DNA from: Paecilomyces variotii
Lineage: Eukaryota
NCBI GenBank assembly: GCA_004022145.1
Contig: RCNU01000002.1
Length of the DNA: 64,000 nucleotides
Reading direction: 5' to 3' (one strand)
The notes below the pieces were generated by a model. It did not search any database. It was not told the origin of the DNA and worked only from the letters and a program-made list of their open reading frames with translations. The position numbers were made by a program, and so were the translations under genes. Of the stretch, positions 25,259 through 34,380 are shown piece by piece. Each line of letters starts with the position of its first letter. The first letter of the stretch is position 1.

Positions 25259-27362
25259 TCACGGCTGGTAATGCTGCTGCCCATAAGACCCACTAGATGA
25301 TGGATCATACGATCTCTGCTGCTCTTGTTCCTCGTTTCCAGCGGTTGCGTGATCCTGCTGCGACATCTGCAGTGGTGGCGGTGGTGGGAGATCAAGATTC
25401 ATCCCTCCTCCCCACTGAGACTGTCTTGGCATAGTTTCATGCTGCATGAATGCCGATGGCTCCATGATGGACATCCGCTGAGAGTTGTACAATGTATCTG
25501 ATAGGTTCGCGGACCCAGTCTGCCAGCTACTGTGGTTGCTATGTTGCTGGGGTTGTGGTTGTGGTTGATTCGTTCCTCCAGAAGCTTGCTGGGAAGAAGA
25601 AGAAGTACTACTCCTTCCGTGGTGGATGAAGGGAGAGGGATCCATTGATGTGATTCGTTGGGTGGTGAAGATGGCGTCTGGTGATGAATTCATTACTCCT
25701 GAAGGCTGTTGAGTACTGCCGTGCTGGACGAAGGGAGAAGGATCCATTGAGTTGATCCGCTGGGGGTTGAAAATGGCATCCGTCGCGTTCTCAGGATGCC
25801 ATGGTCCAGCCTGTGGAGGGATATTGGTGTTGGTGCTTCCTGTGCGTGAGGCAGTCTGGCCTTGGACTATATGGGGGATGTGTCGGAACCAGGGGAATGG
25901 GTTTCGGGGTCGAGGTTGCGTTGTTGATGGTGGTTGTGGGTTGCTGCTAGATGCTGTTGGAGCTGGTAGGTCCCGGTAACTTGACGACGATGGGTCTTGG
26001 GCAGTGTTGTTGTATTGCTGGAGGGATTGAGGGGTCGGGGCATATTGATAGATATATTGCTGTTGGTCTGCTGTTCAAGATTGTTAGTCCTCTGCTTCGA
26101 TGGGGCTAACTGTAGTTAATACCTACTTTGTCTTTCCCCTGTCCCAGTCAGTGTAGGATTTAGTCCGTATAAAGCTGGCATCTGCATCGAATTCTTGGAG
26201 GTATAAATCAGTGATATGTATCTCCCTAAAATATGCACTGTCTAGTGGTGGTGCTTACTGTAGATGGAGGTGGTAGACGCATCTGCCCAGTGTTTTCAAT
26301 AGAACGGTCCATTCCAGACACGGACTGTTGCTGGAATGATGAATTGTGTGCCTTCCATCACGTATTAGTGATATGCATCCTAACTTACAATCAAATAACT
26401 AGAACCGTAGTATACTCACCGTCTGTGTCGCTGATGGCGGCGGAAGAGCAAAATCACCAGGGGTAGCGGGAAAAGGCACCCTAGAATACTGTCGTTGATA
26501 CTGCTCCGGAGCGATCGGTGCATGCGGCGCAGCATATGTATTTCCAAAGCTGCCGTATTGGCTATTAGCCACGGCTCTTAACCTATTCACCTCCGCATCC
26601 ATAGAACCAACGAGTCGCCAAAGTCGACTATTCTCTTCGACTAGCAACGGCGTTATTCCTCGTCTATATGTCCGTTTGGAGTTCTTATCGGTTAGCCAGC
26701 AGGGCACGCCGCGACCTTGGCAGTTCTTGCAATCTCCCGGTTCATCGTCACATCTCATCTTCTTCTCCTGTATTTTTTAAGAAAGGGATCTAATTAGCAA
26801 GGAGAAAGAGGACAGACGCATATACCGCAAGGTCTCAATATCAACTTACAGTACAACGATCACATGCCTGAGGACACCGTTCCGCATCCGTGAGCCTTTC
26901 ACGTACCCTCGCCGACCAATCTGGCGATGGGGCATCTTTAGGACGGCGAGGTTTCTTTTGCTTCTTACGTGCAGGCTCTCCACCACCGGATCCCTCTGTT
27001 ACAGCTGCCGAGGAAGCACTTGTTGGAAACGCAGGAGGCGCCGCTAAGGTTTGTCCGGGAGCTGTGAGAGGAGCTGTGAGACTTGGGATATTTGCGGTCG
27101 TTGTCTGCGATGATGTAGTTGTAGTTGGAGCAGTCCTGAGATCTTTTTAGTAAGTATATCTTATCAATGTCTCTTATCCCCCTGATATAACCCTATTCAT
27201 GGAGCATGGGAACATTAATCTTCTATCGATGGAGTGTACGCACCCTTGTTCTATATTCTCTTCTTGGCCCCCTTGGCTGAGTTGGTCGCTGTGACCATGG
27301 CCAGGGGAGCTCCCACTGCCATCTTCAGATTCAGTATCATCCCTTGTCCTCTTTCCGGTCAT
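25259..27362 (-). CDS. Zn(II)2Cys6 transcription factor with long Q/P/S-rich C-terminus
   Basis: Six exons read by eye (27362-27244, 27135-26850, 26767-26420, 26351-26259, 26193-26127, 26070-25259). Splicing reconstitutes CDRCT|EKKMRCDDEPGDCKNCQGRGVPC, preceded by basic RKKQKKPRRPK. Confidence 0.85.
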
Positions 27363-28727
27363 ATTCAGCGGAATGAAATCGTATATATAAGACCTTGAAA
27401 AGCAAACCACAGCAACAATCAATGAACGGGCAGTAATCGTCACTCCAAAAAGGAAATAACCGAGTCAACAGCACAATAGGGATGTTTGAAGGGAATCAAA
27501 ATATGAGAACGATGACTTTGCAGTTTCTATGCAGGAGAAGTGCCTCCTGGAATCCTGATTGATTTCGGACTCTATATAGATTGCATGGGAAACAGCGAGG
27601 AGTTCTCCTGATCGAACTGGACAGCTAAATACGGTTGGAAGCACAAAGCGTATGTCGATTGAGCTGGCCATATTGAAAGTCATTGTCTGTATGATAAGAC
27701 CTTTGTTTGGTTTAGTATAGGGGATATATCTGCGGTCTATGAGGAAGACATAAAGCGAAAGCCTGTATCTTTGTTATTATGATTAGACAAAGTTATCATT
27801 CAATAGTGGTGCTTTTTTGTTTGAATGTGCCCTCTTACCTTGAACTGTTTTGTCTCTTCAAACCAAGCAACAAAGCCTCTATTGCTCTCAGTGAGAAACA
27901 ATAGACCAGAGACTAGAATAAATCTCTCTTTGTTGGCATATGGTTCGTTTCTGTGGTCTAGAGGCGTTATGTCAGAGTAGCAATATGCTCTGTTCCTACC
28001 CCTTTGTGTAGCCCACAAAGGTTATTATCTGCAAGAAGTATTATTGGAGGTGACTCAATGAACTTGAAGACGCAAGTCTTTGGTAATGATTGTCTATATC
28101 GATCGAGTGAGTCCAAGTAGTATCCAATCCGAGAAGTGACGACTCTTCTGATCCTGAGATGAAGCTAGCCGCCATATGGCAAATCTAAGATAAGTTACAA
28201 ACCGAAGCCAGAAAAATGTTCATTGCATAGTTGCTTTCCCGCCACTGAAATGAAAGCCGAACCCTACCAGAATGGAGCGCCCGATGTCATCTGAGAACTC
28301 CCACACCTCAATTGGCCAAGGAACCGAACCAAAGCAGAATTGAGACAGAGCCAGTGTTGCTCAGGAATAGAAAATGATAAACAACGTCAAGAAAAGGGCC
28401 CATCGGATACCCGACTGAACCATGAGAAGTCATGAATCATTATACATCTCGACAAGGTGTGAAAACAGTTAAATATCAACGACAGGAACGACGGCAAATG
28501 TGCACGGTACAGAGGCTCTCCGGGGAATCATGCAGGAAACAAAAGGGAAAAAGAAATGTCCAGAAGGTATATGTCGAGGTATGGGTAGATCATGATGCCA
28601 GAAATATGTCACGATATTTTCAGGTTCGTAAATCAGATAAAAATCTTCAGCTCAGGGGCATAGTGTGTCAAAGCAGTAATTGTCAGGATTTTGTGAGGGG
28701 GTCAAAGAGTAGGGTTTTCGACTAATA

Positions 28728-31566
28728 TTATCGGAAGTTCTTGCCGTTTTGAGCAACCGTTTGAAAGTGTATTCTGTTTCTGTACTTCAGAGGACCACCA
28801 CGCTCCAGCCAAGGCGTGAGATTCTTGCACTGGCTGACATCGAATGTTTCCAGTTGGTTACAACCTTCAGCGACGGCTTCGACTCCCACGCCTGTGACAC
28901 GCACGCAGCCACGTACCGAAAGCTCCCGAAGAGACAGTAGATGGAGGCCAATACTGCGCAGAGACGGATCCGACACAGCGGAGCCGCAGAATGACATGTT
29001 GAGGTATGTCAATTGAGAGCATTGCAGGGCAAGGACCTCGGTTGCGGTGTCTGATAACGCGCAGCAAAACGACTACGGGCCCCCGTTAGCTATTTGAATA
29101 AGCCCCTCAAAAGACGGAGAACTAGTTGGTACTTACCAGATCCAGTTCACGTAACTGCTTAGCTGCGTTTGTCAGGTAGACTATGGCATTATCCGTCAGA
29201 TAAGTACAGTCAGCCAGACAAAGTCTCCGCAGCCTTGTAAATTGGGCATTGCCCCAATATTGGAAACCTTGATCTGTGATAGTCGTACAACGTGTCAAGT
29301 CGACTTCTTCGATACGAGGTGCAGCGTGAGAAGCAATATGATGCATTGAGCGGTCAGTGACATGTTTGCAGTAAGACAAGGTTAACTTCCTCAGCTGAGG
29401 ACAGCCGAAGACGACGCCAGCAGGAGTCTGCATTGTTGGCTTGATGATCGCCTTCGAAGCCTGAGCGTTCATAGTCTGTTGGGCGAACGTTGCAGCTGGT
29501 ACGACCCATCCTACGATGCGAGCTAAAAGAGTATCGCTGACTTTTCTGCAGTTGCTCAAGTCCACTTCCTGGAGCCCTGTTGCTTTCCCAGCCATGTCAA
29601 GGATCGCAGAAGCAGTAACATCCCAAACGCTTTTCATCTTCCAGGCTTTAACATTGACACCGCATGCAGTCGCTAGTGCGCTAAATCCCTCGTCTGTCAC
29701 GTGGAAACAGTTGCTGAGATCGACATATTGAGGCCGCTCGCCGACGAACGGACAAATGATGGTGATGAGGATTTCATCCGTGACCTTTCTGCTATACATG
29801 CTAAGGTCCAGATATCGAAGGAGATGAGGAGACTTTGTCACAATCTCCATCCAGCGGCCGCAAACGGCTCGAAGACGAAGAAGGTGATGAAGGTCAAGAT
29901 GCTGAAAGACCCTTACTAGAATACTCTCTGGGAGGATCCCTTGGTCATTCGAGCGCTGCTGGCTTTTTTCTCGCTTCGCATTGCTGGTAACATCGAAAAT
30001 GGGGAGGTGAGTCGAACTGGCCGATCGCGAATCGCTTGGTGATGATTGTCGATGGTATTCCCCTGAGGCTTCCTCAGGGGTGAGCGGCGCAACCGAACCC
30101 CGACGAGATCTCAGTCGTACGTTGTCCAACCCGACGTTCAAAAATGGGTCAGGGTCTGATGGCTTCAAGACAGGACGGTCCTCTATCCGAGAAGGCTTAG
30201 ACGGACTTTCCAGCTCCGTTTCCGTCAGCGTCACCAGAGGCATAGACTGCCTTCGAGAAGCCGCAAGTTTGATTTTATCATCTAGAGCAAGCTCGTTGAT
30301 TGGTGGTGTTTGGTCGACTGTATCAGACATGACAACGTCTCCGTCAGATGCTGATACCAGTCTCTCCTTAGCAGTACGCTCGACTTGTCGCCGGACATCA
30401 TGGGGGCATCTCTTCCAGAATTCTGCCAACACGTCTCCGCTTATCATAAGGCACTCAACCGCAGTTACCGAACGTACAGTGGCTGTTCTGCGGGGTGCTA
30501 GCGACAGACTCACGACCTCCCCAAAGTACTGGCCCTGTCTCAGGCGAGCTTTAACTTCCATACCTTTGTTCGTAAGTTGTTTCTGCCCGTTACGTGGATG
30601 ACTGTTGTCAGACTTCTCATTGATGACTTCTACTTCACCACGGACAATGAAGTAGATCTCTCTACCTTGCGAGTCTTGCTTAATGATATCTGCGAAAGGG
30701 GGGTACGAGCGGGGTTGCGCGTTAAGGCCCAGGAAATGGAGTAAATCGGGAGGTAACCCTGAGAACAGCGGAAGCTCCTTCAGCAGTAGCCGGACATTCA
30801 CCATGCCATTCGCCAAGGCACTTGCCGTTGATCCATCGGACAACCCTGGACTAGGAGATTTCCGCTTTTTATTTATGCTGTTGATGCTGAGATCCTCCTC
30901 GTCAGCGACAGACAAGTCTCCTGAGAAACTGTCTCGAACTCTTTTCGAGCCTCTTCGGTTGATCTCAAAGGCATCTGATGGAGGTGTGGATTGTTGCTTT
31001 TTCTTTTTCTCCAGTATTGTCAACCTTTCCTGGGCCTCGTCTCTGATGGCACGTTCTACCTCCGGGAATCGTGGGAGTATCTTCCTGAAATCCTCCTTGG
31101 TCAACACAACCAGAAGACAGCGCGTCCGGGCGATGATTGTTGCAGTCCGGGGACGATCCATCAAGACACCGATCTCCCCGAAGAACGCGCCTGGTTTGAG
31201 CTCTGCGTATACACTTTCGCAGTCCCGCGACGTCACTGCCACTGCACCCCTCACCAGCCAATACATGGCTTTAGCCTCATCGCCTTCTGTCAAGATGTAG
31301 TCGTTGGGAGAGTGCAACTGAGGGCGGAGATGCAATCCAACTTCGGCCAGGAAGGAGTTGGGAGTGGATTGGAATAGAGGAAAGGAACGTATTCGGTCGA
31401 CAAGGTCCAGGGGCATGCCCTGTATCTGGGAGGATGCCAGTGGTGATGGGCGCACCGGCCGGCTAGGATTCGTTTCGGAATTGAAGGAGCGAATTAGGGA
31501 AACCGTCTCTGACACCGGGGCAGCGGCCTTGGTAGACCCTGCGCCGGATCTGCCATGACGGCGCAT
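28728..31566 (-). CDS. Protein with two cyclic-nucleotide-binding domains, an F-box and leucine-rich repeats
   Basis: Exons 31566-29137 and 29072-28728; phosphate-binding cassettes FGEIGVLMDRPRTAT and FGEVVSLSLAPRRTAT; F-box LPESILVRVFQHLDLHHLLRLRAVCGRW; Cys-containing LRRs (LxLSxCxxVTD). Confidence 0.93.
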
Positions 31567-34380
31567 GATTATTGATTTGGTTCTCGGAGGAGAAATGTCA
31601 AGAGTAGATCTCTTGGTGCAGTTAGATCAGGCACATCGTCGCCCGGCTGAGAGCATTGGGTCAATGACGTCGATGGAAGAAGAAGAGTCACCGTAGGGCA
31701 GCACACATCGTCGAAGCCCAGTCGCAGCCAACTTTCCGCTGTCCGTCCAGAAAGCAGCCCGGGGAGACAATGGAGATGGGGTCTGATGTCGCTGCGACGG
31801 CGGTCTGCAGAATGTGGGACACAATCGATTCACAGCTGGGGGGAATTACCGGGCCGCAGACGGTGGAGGACGAGGACCACGAGCAGATGCCGACAGCAGC
31901 TTTGATAATAATACCGGAAACAGTTTCATGCGCGACTTGCGGTGGTAATGATGCAGGGAGAGAAAAGAGAAGATTCCTTGGGGCGATTCGACGTCGGTCC
32001 TGAGGCATGAACGATAGCTGGGTTGAAGCTTAAGCTCGTTGAGTCGACCAGAGGTGGGGGAGCAGCGCTGACGAAACGCCGGTCCACGGAGGGGCGGAAA
32101 ACGATGCTTGCGCTCTCGGTGCTAATCCCAAAGGTTGTGGAACAGCGCAAGTGATGGCCAGAACAATAATAACAATAATGATGATGATGATACCTGTGCT
32201 CGATCTGCTCTAGAGTACGCCTTTCTCGACCTTCTCGATTCGGTAATCTCGAAGCCAAGAGAACTAACCGGTCATGTGCGAGCTCAGCTAGGTACTGTCC
32301 TGTCCTGTCCTGTCCTGTATTAATATTATTATTTATCCGTCAGCTAAGTTATCGGAGAGACAAGAACGAGGCGCACGGGAGGTTAATCTGGTGGAGCATT
32401 CCGCCTTCTCCAGATCCAGAGCACGATCAAGTCAAGTCAAGTCAAGTCATGGGTCATCACTGGTCGAGTTACAAGGCGAGCTGAACTTCTGAGGCATCAG
32501 CAGCTTCCCGTGCGCACCGGTTCGTTGTCTGTTCCGTGCGTCGATCGAAGTCTCAACGGTTCTCCAGTTGAACTCGTTTCTGACCGCTCTTACTGTCACT
32601 TCGACTTTGACTCCACACAATTGACGGCTGTCGCGGGGCCGTGCAGGGTCCACCGGAGGCCAAAGTCCACGGCGGCAACTTCAGGTTGTACCGTTGTAGT
32701 AGTGATAGAGCTTCGCTTCACTCTAGAACCGGTATTTCACTGGAGGGAACAAGCACTAGCAACGATTCACACCTGAGATATAGTAGTCTCGCCTGTGTTC
32801 ATATCACCATTTGGAAACATTGCAGGTAGAATAATCCGGCGAAACTCAATATAAAGCAAGGTCGACCGCGCCAGGCCGAAGAACCACCTAGTTAGCAGTC
32901 CAGCGTGAACGCTAGACTAAGATATCGGACGAATTGGTGGATATCCGTTCCCTGAAAAGGACCAAAGCGAAGTCCAGGAAATAATAGTAGTTACAAATGC
33001 ATTGGACGTCTACGAAGGACTCCTAGTCGAAGACTAGAGTAAGTCTGGCACGTGTAGACGTCTTGCGCTTAGAAGCTATTCCGCTGCGAATAACTACCTA
33101 GGTAACTATCATCTCCTCGATGACCAAGGCAACACGCCAGAGAACAGAGCGTATCTCCATCTTCACGTGGTTCTTACTTACTAGAAACCTCCAGGCTCAA
33201 AAAATAGAGGTATTGGAAGCAATTGATAACGGAAATGGCTGGGCAGAGTAACTACCAGGATAATGACATGGCATTGAGATCTATGACACTGGATCGTATG
33301 TGGCCTCTCCTAGAAATAGTTACAGGGTCCGAGAACCTACTGCATGGCATCGGTCTGGGCAGTGCCACAACCCGAACCCTCGCAGGGGGCTGGTTCAGCA
33401 TACTTAACATCCCAGCCCTTGAAAAGCCAAGATGACGTGAGCTGTACCGGAATATTCAATAATGCTGCAGAACCTAACGACTCTCGTCGGCCTGGATAAC
33501 TGGGCTCTTTTAGAGTAATGAATCTAAGCGCCTCTCGAATCTCGTCAGCTCGCATCCGCGATTCCGGTTCGTATCTAGTATTGGCTGCTTTCCATCCAGT
33601 ACGAGTAGGAACAGAAATATGGCATGCGATGTATCAGAAATGAAACCTTTTCAAAATCTTCATTTTTGTTTTCTTTTTCTTTTTCTTTTTCTCCTTTCAG
33701 CTGTAGCGGACCCCAAAACCACCACGAAACCTATTACTGTAAAGAAAAATCCTCCGTTAAAGTTCGGAGTTAACAAAAATAGACGTAAACAAATACTGCG
33801 TTACAAGCCAGGAAAAAATTTGCAGGTTTCATATCTATTCAAGCAATTTGCCGGCCACTATTATACTCTCTTCTTGCGACTTGTATGAGCTCTGCAGGGG
33901 AAAAATGATTCATCAATCAGTTAAGGCAGTAGATTCCACATATACTGAGAAGGCTACCGATGTACTGTCCTTCCAAAGTCCTCCTATTTCTAGGCGGTTT
34001 CGCATAACTCGCGTGAGTATCAAGGACTCATTTCGGAGGTAACAGTCCACATGGCTCGAGCCTGCGTACACCTTTCGGGCGCTTCCGGTGTCCGTGGATT
34101 GCTAAACTCTGGGGTATCAATAATGACAGAAGAGACGATAGGTACCGAAGAGAGGAGTGCGCTGTGTTTCGTGACTCTCCTAGAGTCTCAGGCGGGTCGC
34201 AGCTAGCGTGGCAAGTCGATGTGCTCCTCACTTTATGGAGACAGCAATCGAGCTGCATCCGTCCATCCATAAAAGCCCTCAGAGGGCTTAACGGAGAAGT
34301 AGACGTAAGCCAATGTACGTTTACCAGAACATGGCTCTGGGTGTCAAGTGCGCCGCACTAACTGTGCTGGCAGTATGGCC

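What the first reader, a model, noticed from the sequence alone, without database searches (positions are those of the whole stretch)
28728..31566. Tandem cNMP-binding domains fused to F-box and LRR: candidate cyclic-nucleotide-controlled SCF ubiquitin-ligase receptor
Seen: two cNMP-binding domains with intact FGE...R cassettes, then an F-box and Grr1/FBXL-type LRRs. Known: F-box/LRR proteins recruit substrates to SCF, and fungal cAMP signalling is usually attributed to PKA. Inference: a second messenger could directly gate substrate ubiquitination, a PKA-independent effector route. Orthologues probably exist and are annotated generically, but I know of no biochemical characterisation.
Basis: partly seen in the sequence, partly recalled or inferred. 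Interest (0 to 1): 0.75.

Follow-up and report, generated by a model that had tools for sequence, protein, structure and literature searches.

The report
Candidate cAMP-sensing F-box protein FbxA
This mould gene is the counterpart of a known protein-disposal adaptor (FbxA) that also carries an intact-looking cAMP pocket and conserved protein kinase A sites, so cAMP may steer protein breakdown through it in two ways, an idea for which I found no published test.

Summary
The gene is real: two exons, an RNA-supported intron, 924 aa, in the order CNB-A, CNB-B, F-box, LRR. It is the Paecilomyces variotii orthologue (73% identical) of Aspergillus nidulans FbxA/Fbx19 (AN4510). So it is not uncharacterised: published work shows SkpA co-purification, nuclear location, and carbon-repression and xylanase defects of deletions.

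CNB-A has a canonical phosphate-binding cassette (Arg140 in 71 of 74 distant relatives). CNB-B is a variant, with an insertion and Val at the small-residue position. I found no paper that tests nucleotide binding.

Three things are new here. The fusion also occurs in chytrids, Mucoromycota and unicellular animal relatives. The linker holds a conserved PKA-type RRxS site (68 of 100 relatives, 3.2 expected), PKI-like in early lineages. A second RRGS site of the A. fumigatus orthologue is a published candidate direct PKA target.

'PKA-independent' is therefore doubtful. The best model is an Skp1-bound receptor with two cAMP inputs, direct binding and PKA phosphorylation. Gating of ubiquitination is inferred, not shown, and FbxA was not seen in the CulA pull-down table.

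The parts
29137..31566 (-). Coding exon 1 (aa 1-810): CNB-A, CNB-B, linker, F-box, most of the LRR
   Evidence: identical to P0135
29073..29136 (-). 64-nt intron, GTAAGT...CTAAC...TAG
   Evidence: skipped by RNA contigs in 3 of 4 runs
28728..29072 (-). Coding exon 2 (aa 811-924 and stop): last LRRs
30988..31410 (-). CNB-A (aa 53-193), canonical cyclic-nucleotide-binding domain with C-helix Arg181
   Evidence: (SthK CNBD, E 1e-25, no gaps over 126 aa)
31138..31182 (-). Phosphate-binding cassette A (F129-G130-E131...R140-T141)
   Evidence: G130 70/71, E131 69/72, R140 71/74
30946..30957 (-). Proximal PKA-consensus site RRGS207 in the A-B linker
   Evidence: matching A. fumigatus phosphopeptide, WT/pkaC1-deletion ratio 2.8, P 0.040; an RRxS follows the CNB-A C-helix in 84 of 120 close homologues
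30343..30801 (-). CNB-B (aa 256-408), variant cassette
30478..30525 (-). Phosphate-binding cassette B (G349-E350...R360), one-residue insertion, Val352
   Evidence: G349 80/80, E350 70/80, R360 70/81; canonical in 12 of 69
30085..30156 (-). Distal linker motif DPDPF...L480...RRGS491V: PKA-consensus site, PKI/RII-like in early lineages (RRASVAVW)
   Evidence: 119 of 120 close homologues
29797..29940 (-). F-box (aa 543-590)
   Evidence: 32 of 48 residues identical to A. nidulans FbxA
28758..29796 (-). Cys-containing LRR solenoid (aa 591-915, spans the intron) with a near-invariant basic/aromatic set W648, N672, R674, K675, Y732, K734, R759
   Evidence: FBXL2, Z 32.7, rmsd 3.1 over 330 residues
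31567..32005 (-). Probable 5' leader, with four upstream ATGs inside the stretch and one more at 32008
   Evidence: RNA contigs of run X3; ATG list. Contigs cannot show a start site
28060..28727 (-). Probable 3' UTR; T-run loose end at 28060 suggests the poly(A) site
   Evidence: run X10 (one contig)

Best explanation
This is FbxA/Fbx19, an ancient opisthokont F-box/LRR protein that binds Skp1 and probably reads cAMP twice. Shown here: the gene model, domain order, orthology, a canonical CNB-A pocket and two conserved PKA-type sites. Shown in print for orthologues: SkpA co-purification, nuclear location, carbon-repression and xylanase phenotypes, and PKA-dependent phosphorylation of the proximal site. 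Inferred: (1) CNB-A binds cAMP (about 0.8); CNB-B is weaker or structural in filamentous ascomycetes. (2) PKA phosphorylates the linker RRxS sites (about 0.85) and PP2A (PphA) reverses this. (3) The basic LRR patch reads a phosphorylated RRxS-type motif, either its own (autoinhibition or self-destruction) or a substrate's. (4) cAMP binding plus the phosphorylation state switch substrate capture, cullin loading or FbxA stability (about 0.5), tying glucose/cAMP signalling to turnover of a regulator of alternative-carbon use. SipB (STRIPAK) and PphA are the first candidate substrates or partners.
For: Orthology: 675 of 924 residues identical to AN4510; CNB-A is the best-kept part at 120 of 136. 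Skp1: AN4510 is listed in SkpA tables for vegetative growth, sexual development and three stresses with 2-26 unique peptides, and not in the free-GFP file; the reverse pull-down holds SkpA/SconC. Pocket: CNB-A matches SthK, yeast PKA-R, HCN and PKG CNBDs. G130, E131, R140 and C-helix R181 are kept in 70/71, 69/72, 71/74 and 75/78 distant relatives. 100 of 117 CNB+LRR relatives keep at least one canonical cassette. A six-frame search found four CNB genes in this genome (a lower bound); of the cassettes read, only the PKA-R pair and CNB-A have the textbook form. PKA: distal RRxS-hydrophobic site in 68 of 100 linkers against 3.2 expected; A-B linker site in 24 of 46 against 3.8; A. fumigatus phosphopeptide, 17 of 18 residues equal to the A. 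viridinutans orthologue, in the table of direct PKA target candidates. LRR patch and motif are lost together in the four-CNB chytrid paralogues (0 of 12 each) and kept together in holozoans (5 of 5, 4 of 5) and one-CNB chytrids (14 of 16, 16 of 16). Phenotypes lie in carbon signalling. SipB and PphA appear only on the Fbx19 sheet of the F-box interactome file.
Against: No binding data exist for either CNB, and some orphan CNB domains use other ligands (PMC6440977 passage). AN4510 occurs three times in the SkpA/CulA file, all on the SkpA sheet, and CulA is absent from the 14 proteins of the Fbx19 pull-down, so assembly into a full SCF is not shown. No substrate is known. The PKA effect on the proximal site is modest (2.8-fold, P 0.040, 87% localisation). 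The distal site has no phosphorylation record that I could find, and AN4510 is absent from the six held supplements of the A. nidulans PKA phosphoproteome. The unphosphorylated motif is low-confidence in both AlphaFold2 models, so no cis docking is seen. The co-loss of patch and motif is one evolutionary event. The pull-downs used overexpressed fusions and STRIPAK supplements searched (12 of 24 files) do not list AN4510. Deletion phenotypes are mild.
Confidence: 0.5

Rival explanations
1. Pure direct gating, independent of PKA: cAMP or cGMP on the CNB pair opens the LRR for a substrate and the RRxS sites are incidental.
For: Canonical and highly conserved CNB-A. Four-CNB chytrid paralogues lack the RRASVAVW motif (0 of 12), so CNB plus F-box/LRR can exist without it.
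Against: RRxS sites are kept far above chance in otherwise variable linkers, and one is PKA-dependent in vivo in A. fumigatus.
Confidence: 0.15
2. Non-canonical PKA regulatory partner: the PKI-like helix plus RRxS docks in the PKA catalytic cleft, the CNBs make the hold cAMP-sensitive, and the F-box routes the kinase or the complex to Skp1 and ubiquitination.
For: In 39 early-lineage sequences with the RRASVAVW motif, P-11 is hydrophobic in 36 and P-14 in 28, positions not fixed by the search pattern. The chytrid model puts a helix just before the site. An amphipathic helix ahead of an inhibitor sequence is the PKI/Smoothened layout (PMC13186710 passage); the P-11/P-14 spacing of PKI is recalled. 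The genome's own PKA-R has a like site.
Against: The site follows the CNBs rather than preceding them, and P0 is Ser, a substrate. The A. fumigatus orthologue is marked 'No' for the PkaC1 interactome, and no PKA subunit is among the 14 Fbx19 partners. In the 19 filamentous-ascomycete-type sequences P-11 is hydrophobic in only 8 and the Trp is lost.
Confidence: 0.15
3. A non-SCF Skp1 complex: FbxA binds SkpA but works as a cAMP-sensitive nuclear scaffold for PP2A/STRIPAK parts, not as a ubiquitin-ligase receptor.
For: Found with SkpA but not on a CulA sheet. The paper reports 13 F-box proteins that bind SkpA only. The top partners are SipB and PphA.
Against: CulA was assayed only in vegetative growth, so loading could be conditional. 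The fold is closest to FBXL2 and FBXL17, both in SKP1 complexes.
Confidence: 0.12
4. The CNB domains do not bind cyclic nucleotides, or bind another ligand. They are protein-interaction modules and cAMP acts only through PKA.
For: The genome's NTE1-like and sulfate-transporter-like proteins (labels recalled from sequence) carry variant cassettes. CNB-B is non-canonical in 57 of 69. Trypanosome PKA-R binds nucleosides.
Against: CNB-A keeps Gly, Glu, a small residue, Arg, Thr and the C-helix Arg across fungi and holozoans. Non-binding CNBs usually lose the Arg (established knowledge, recalled).
Confidence: 0.08

Closest known systems
A. nidulans FbxA/Fbx19 (AN4510); N. crassa Fbx-19 (NCU08642); A. 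fumigatus Afu2g03170
   Same: Orthologue: 73% identity over the full length, same domain order, both cassettes and both RRGS sites kept.
   Different: Nothing of substance in the window's copy. The passages I read treat FbxA as an F-box protein and do not discuss the CNB domains; it is described as unique to fungi, which the holozoan members contradict.
FBXL-type SCF receptors (human FBXL2, FBXL17; yeast Grr1)
   Same: F-box followed by a Cys-containing LRR solenoid; FBXL2 Z 32.7, FBXL17 Z 31.4.
   Different: About 20% identity. They have no N-terminal CNB domains (recalled). Grr1 was not compared directly here.
cAMP effectors with CNB domains: SthK and HCN channels, PKA regulatory subunits, PKG, Epac
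   Same: CNB-A cassette and C-helix align without gaps to the SthK CNBD; matches to Bcy1, HCN and PKG. Two CNBs plus an RRxS site recall type II R subunits.
   Different: The output module is an F-box/LRR. The two CNBs are separated by about 60 disordered residues, and the RRxS site lies after them. No dimerisation/docking domain was reported by Pfam.
Small-molecule-sensing F-box proteins: TIR1/AFB, COI1, FBXL5 (recalled, not tested here)
   Same: A ligand is proposed to control an F-box/LRR receptor.
   Different: In TIR1 and COI1 the ligand sits in the LRR as a glue. Here it would bind a separate allosteric domain, closer in logic to the sensor domain of FBXL5, and the ligand would be a second messenger.
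PKI and Smoothened PKI-like motifs
   Same: Amphipathic helix followed by RRx-S/A-hydrophobic.
   Different: Ser at P0 makes it a substrate, not a pseudosubstrate. The helix signal is weak in filamentous ascomycetes.

Membership tests
FbxA/Fbx19 orthologous group | Full-length similarity and same architecture as AN4510 | tested here: met
   675 of 924 identical; CNB-CNB-F-box-LRR in both. No reciprocal search of the A. nidulans genome was run.
FbxA/Fbx19 orthologous group | Single copy in the genome | tested here: met
   Own-genome cNMP_binding search gave 6 matches in 4 genes, only this one with this architecture; the count is a lower bound.
FBXL-type SCF substrate receptor | F-box motif | tested here: met
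   PF12937 34.6 bits, PF00646 27.8 bits, both over cut-off; L-P-E, I/L, V-C, W hallmarks.
FBXL-type SCF substrate receptor | C-terminal LRR solenoid | tested here: met
   AlphaFold2 model and match to FBXL2, Z 32.7, 330 aligned, rmsd 3.1.
FBXL-type SCF substrate receptor | Binds Skp1 | not testable with these tools
   Published for the orthologue: SkpA pull-down tables and the reverse pull-down (PMC9744329 supplements).
FBXL-type SCF substrate receptor | Assembles with cullin and ubiquitinates a substrate | tested here: inconclusive
   AN4510 was found only on the SkpA sheet of the SkpA/CulA file; CulA was tested in vegetative growth only. No substrate known.
Canonical cNMP-binding (CNB) domain, CNB-A | Beta-barrel with cassette G-E-x-small...R at spacing 9 | tested here: met
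   G130-E131-I-G133...R140; conservation; 61 of 69 canonical.
Canonical cNMP-binding (CNB) domain, CNB-A | C-helix able to cap the base | tested here: met
   Helix 168-193 in the model; R181 in 75 of 78, aligned to an Arg of the SthK C-helix. Its equivalence to the HCN capping Arg is recalled.
Canonical cNMP-binding (CNB) domain, CNB-B | Cassette G-E-x-small...R at spacing 9 | tested here: not met
   Spacing 10 and Val352; canonical in 12 of 69 relatives. G, E and R are kept, so binding is not excluded.
Canonical cNMP-binding (CNB) domain | Measured cAMP or cGMP binding | not testable with these tools
   No report found.
PKA regulatory subunit | Inhibitor site N-terminal to contiguous tandem CNBs | tested here: not met
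   RRxS sites lie between and after the CNBs, which are about 60 residues apart. The genome has a separate PKA-R.
PKA regulatory subunit | Stable complex with the catalytic subunit | not testable with these tools
   A. fumigatus orthologue marked 'No' in the PkaC1 interactome column.
PKI-like PKA docking motif | Amphipathic helix before RRx(S/A)-hydrophobic | tested here: inconclusive
   Strong in early lineages (P-11 hydrophobic 36 of 39), weak in the window's group (8 of 19; the window has L480).
PKI-like PKA docking motif | Non-phosphorylatable P0 residue | tested here: not met
   S491 in 69 of 79 aligned relatives.

The most novel reading that the evidence does not exclude
FbxA is the living representative of an ancient opisthokont cAMP effector, apparently lost in animals, in which a cyclic nucleotide directly controls an Skp1-linked ubiquitin-ligase receptor. 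cAMP on CNB-A and PKA phosphorylation of a PKI-like linker motif, read by the protein's own basic LRR pocket and erased by PP2A, together form a coincidence switch that decides whether targets such as the STRIPAK subunit SipB, or PKA-C itself, are ubiquitinated.
Probability: 0.35. Interest if true: 0.85.

Novelty: new variant of a known kind. Interest (0 to 1): 0.6.

Why it matters
Fungal cAMP signalling is usually explained through PKA alone (general knowledge). This genome holds only four detectable CNB genes, and FbxA is the only one besides PKA-R with a textbook cassette among those read. If it binds cAMP and this changes ubiquitination, it would be a new output class for cAMP: an E3 receptor gated by a second messenger. 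It would also give a mechanism for the carbon-repression and xylanase phenotypes of fbxA mutants, which matter for enzyme production. The test is cheap, because deletion strains exist in A. nidulans and N. crassa and the residues to mutate are now defined (R140, R360, S207, S491, K734/R759). The gene itself is known, which caps the score.

Tried and rejected
Complex prediction of CNB-A (aa 50-195) with the F-box/LRR (aa 540-918) and cAMP gave no verdict (score 0.00 in two runs, alignments not used); it is not evidence either way.

AlphaFold2 of a one-CNB chytrid member (P0263) to look for cis docking of RRASVAVW: residues 332-369 stayed under pLDDT 50; phosphoserine cannot be modelled.

A PDB sequence search with the motif stretch found nothing at E 10. 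The SIKE family was not found in the own genome, so SipB could not be modelled. A degenerate pattern for the PKA catalytic subunit found nothing; the kinase scan showed a PkaB-like exon (label recalled) among 30 loci, and I did not pursue a PKA-C complex because a pass would follow from likeness to PKI/RII structures.

N. crassa phosphosite positions for Fbx-19 were not in the three held supplements. AN4510 was not in the A. nidulans PKA phosphoproteome supplements, nor in the main text of PMC6016232. The original fbxA paper is not held.

No named animal, choanoflagellate, plant or basidiomycete protein with CNB plus LRR appeared, or in the Atlas rows. These searches show only top hits and few names, so absence is not proven.

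A gene-model artefact was rejected: exon 1 is one open frame from CNB-A to the LRR, RNA contigs cover it, and the fusion recurs across the family. Contamination of the holozoan records was considered unlikely: four sequences from separate datasets group together, apart from most fungal rows but beside the four-CNB chytrid clade, in a midpoint-rooted FastTree of 101 F-box/LRR regions. No formal clade test was run.

Neighbouring genes (Slx4, Zn2Cys6, Tim17-like, kinesin, proline dehydrogenase, GH76, amylase) show no functional link. Earlier scan notes held nothing on this gene.
Full report
1. Observation. The finding is a real, expressed, two-exon gene on the minus strand: exon 1 31566-29137, intron 29136-29073, exon 2 29072-28728. 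The 924-aa product equals a stored Paecilomyces variotii protein letter for letter. RNA contigs skip the intron in 3 of 4 runs laid. Pfam gives two cNMP-binding stretches, an F-box over cut-off, LRRs and the family-specific region cNMPbd_u2. AlphaFold2 (106-row alignment) folds CNB-A, CNB-B, F-box and LRR with high confidence and leaves the linkers disordered. The C-terminal part matches FBXL2 and FBXL17 (Z 32.7 and 31.4); the N-terminal part matches PKG and PKA-R CNBs.

2. It is a known gene. The A. nidulans hit named 'protein fbxA' is 72-73% identical over the whole length. Supplements of PMC9744329 equate it with AN4510 = Fbx19 and list orthologues in N. crassa (NCU08642), A. fumigatus (Afu2g03170), Fusarium and Candida albicans, with none listed for S. 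cerevisiae, S. pombe or Cryptococcus. AN4510 is in the SkpA tables for vegetative growth, sexual development, NaCl, H2O2 and menadione, and not in the free-GFP file (12 of 21 files were searched). It is mainly nuclear. Deletion gives 2-deoxyglucose resistance and lower xylanase in A. nidulans (seen through citing passages, and the database text). In N. crassa it gives allyl-alcohol sensitivity and poorer growth on arabinan and pectin. The Fbx19 pull-down lists 14 partners, headed by AN1010 (9 peptides), the PP2A catalytic subunit PphA (6) and SkpA/SconC (3). AN1010 is SipB, the SIKE-like STRIPAK subunit, and AN1010 and PphA occur on no other sheet of that file. Against a plain SCF role: all three places of AN4510 in the SkpA/CulA file are on the SkpA sheet, and the paper notes 13 F-box proteins that bind SkpA only, with CulA tested in vegetative growth alone.

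3. The cassettes are not equal. CNB-A aligns without gaps to the cAMP/cGMP-bound SthK domain over 126 residues (E 1e-25). In 87 rows (the window plus 86 of the 149 distant representatives), G130 is kept in 70 of 71 rows with a residue there, E131 in 69 of 72, R140 in 71 of 74, T141 in 66 of 74 and the C-helix R181 in 75 of 78. CNB-B keeps G349 (80 of 80), E350 (70 of 80), R360 (70 of 81) and R402 (67 of 81), but has an insertion and Val352 at the small-residue position. Of 69 relatives with two complete CNBs, A is canonical in 61 and B in 12; 100 of 117 CNB+LRR proteins have at least one canonical cassette, and many of the other 17 look like fragments. The genome search found four CNB genes: PKA-R, this gene, and two with variant cassettes that I label NTE1-like and sulfate-transporter-like from recall. 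I infer that CNB-A binds a cyclic nucleotide, most likely cAMP; the Thr after the Arg does not decide between cAMP and cGMP, as SthK has it too.

4. The fusion is older than fungi. Of the 150 best representatives, 117 carry CNB plus LRR, with one, two or four CNBs. I named 20 of them by exact look-up; 16 had a name. They include Saccharomycotina-type yeasts (Clavispora, Tortispora, Lipomyces), Mucoromycota-type fungi (Jimgerdemannia, Calcarisporiella, Dichotomocladium, Dissophora), chytrids (Blyttiomyces, Polyrhizophydium, Thoreauomyces), Paraphysoderma (Blastocladiomycota), and four non-fungal records: Pigoraptor vietnamica (Filasterea), Ichthyophonus hoferi (Ichthyosporea), Chromosphaera perkinsii and a 'Clim' gene model. 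Group names not backed by a taxonomy call, and my reading of 'Clim' as Corallochytrium, are recalled. Pfam confirms two CNBs, F-box and LRR in three of the four non-fungal proteins scanned, and the fourth carries the same families in precomputed hits. The published description of FbxA as unique to fungi is therefore too narrow.

5. The linker between the last CNB and the F-box is variable (mean conservation 0.32), yet holds RR-x-S-hydrophobic in 68 of 100 proteins, against 3.2 expected from shuffles. A wider search to the F-box start found it in 88 rows, 16 of them directly before the F-box and perhaps not the same site. In the window it is RRGS491V, kept in 119 of 120 close homologues. In 39 early-lineage proteins it reads RRASVAVW or a close variant, with a hydrophobic residue at P-11 in 36 and at P-14 in 28. 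The chytrid model puts helices on both sides. This resembles the helix-plus-inhibitor layout of PKI and Smoothened (passage in PMC13186710; the PKI spacing is recalled). The signal is weaker in the window's own group (P-11 hydrophobic in 8 of 19). A second site, RRGS207, lies between the CNBs (an RRxS there in 84 of 120 close homologues; 24 of 46 distant A-B linkers against 3.8 expected). Table S3 of PMC7773993 lists this site in an A. fumigatus 'cyclic nucleotide-binding domain protein' as a direct PKA target candidate: 2.8-fold, P 0.040, not in the PkaC1 interactome. I assign that protein as the orthologue from a 17-of-18 peptide match. The A. nidulans PKA phosphoproteome supplements do not list AN4510.

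6. The LRR. A set of basic and aromatic residues after successive strands is nearly invariant: W648 80/80, N672 78/79, R674 74/79, K675 68/79, Y732 73/77, K734 77/77, R759 77/77. I infer that they form a phosphate-reading patch; I could not inspect model coordinates to confirm that they cluster. The four-CNB chytrid paralogues lack both the NCRK element and the RRASVAVW motif (0 of 12 each), while holozoans (5 of 5, 4 of 5) and one-CNB chytrids (14 of 16, 16 of 16) keep both. This is one event on the tree, so it is a lead only.

7. Mechanism. The best-supported reading (0.5) is an Skp1-bound F-box/LRR receptor with two cAMP inputs: direct binding at CNB-A and PKA phosphorylation of linker sites, reversed by PP2A. 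The output would be substrate capture, cullin loading or FbxA's own stability, acting in carbon-source signalling. The anatomy, orthology and conservation are shown here; Skp1 binding, phenotypes and one phosphosite are published; ligand binding and every coupling step are inferred. Rivals are pure PKA-independent gating (0.15), a PKI/RII-like partner of PKA-C (0.15), a non-SCF Skp1 scaffold for phosphatase complexes (0.12) and non-binding CNBs (0.08).

8. What I saw of the papers. PMC9744329: passages, section 6, supplement searches and one part of file 11; S1 Fig (domain drawings) was not visible and may show the CNBs. PMC6838226: passages and supplement searches. PMC7773993: passages, part 1 of Table S3 and the one matching row. 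PMC6438568: passages and 12 of 24 supplements. PMC6495382: supplement search only. PMC5468973, PMC8359064, PMC4545925, PMC10743114, PMC12880806, PMC6143667, PMC13186710, PMC6440977: passages. PMC6016232 and PMC7991009: term searches with no hit. Colabardini et al. 2012 (PubMed 22142781): not held; seen only as cited, and it may discuss the domains. The claim that cNMP binding is untested rests on nine searches of an open-access library, which misses most subscription journals; bioRxiv supplements were closed.

9. Verdict. The gene and its Skp1 link are known, and the architecture is in automatic annotation. The cAMP-sensing role is open, well supported by sequence and easy to test. The opisthokont-wide range, the conserved PKA/PKI-like site and the SipB/PphA leads appear not to have been put together in the papers I could read. 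Novelty: new variant of a known kind. Interest 0.6; 0.85 if the coincidence-switch model holds (probability about 0.35).

Noticed in passing
window 32289-32356 (+ strand): RNA contigs of two runs skip a 66-nt GT..AG stretch on the plus strand, about 700 nt upstream of the fbxA start, where no ORF of 150 aa or more lies: a divergent spliced transcript, non-coding or the leader of a neighbour.
   Followed up: no
window 31567-32008 (- strand): The probable 5' leader of fbxA is about 440 nt and holds five upstream ATGs opening frames of 4 to 106 codons, which could regulate translation.
   Followed up: partly
P0223, P0225, P0226, P0233, P0319-P0337: Chytrids have a second paralogue with four CNB domains before an F-box/LRR, lacking the PKA motif and with a different LRR surface, beside a one-CNB paralogue.
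   Followed up: partly
P0214, P0245, P0252, P0268: Unnamed proteins with 6 to 9 tandem CNB domains and no F-box or LRR detected; P0214 has seven near-identical canonical cassettes in eight domains.
   Followed up: no
P0231, P0236, P0244, P0247: In the Dissophora-containing clade CNB-A is the degenerate domain and CNB-B the canonical-spaced one, the reverse of ascomycetes.
   Followed up: partly
P0173, P0176, P0183 and related yeast-type rows: Saccharomycotina-type members have long insertions in the CNB-B cassette and an RRSSV-like site directly before the F-box.
   Followed up: partly
ESM Atlas rank 7: A 58-member cluster carries cNMP_binding, cNMPbd_u2 and a Bax inhibitor-1 domain (1365 aa): probably a merged gene model with a neighbour, or a real fusion.
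   Followed up: no
window 25259-26776 (- strand): A Zn2Cys6 domain exon (26402-26776) lies next to a Gln/Pro-rich 271-aa frame with imperfect internal repeats; likely one transcription-factor gene.
   Followed up: no
P0257, P0263: NCBI names these chytrid CNB/F-box/LRR proteins 'anaphase-promoting complex subunit Hcn1', apparently a mis-transfer from the HCN1 channel name.
   Followed up: no
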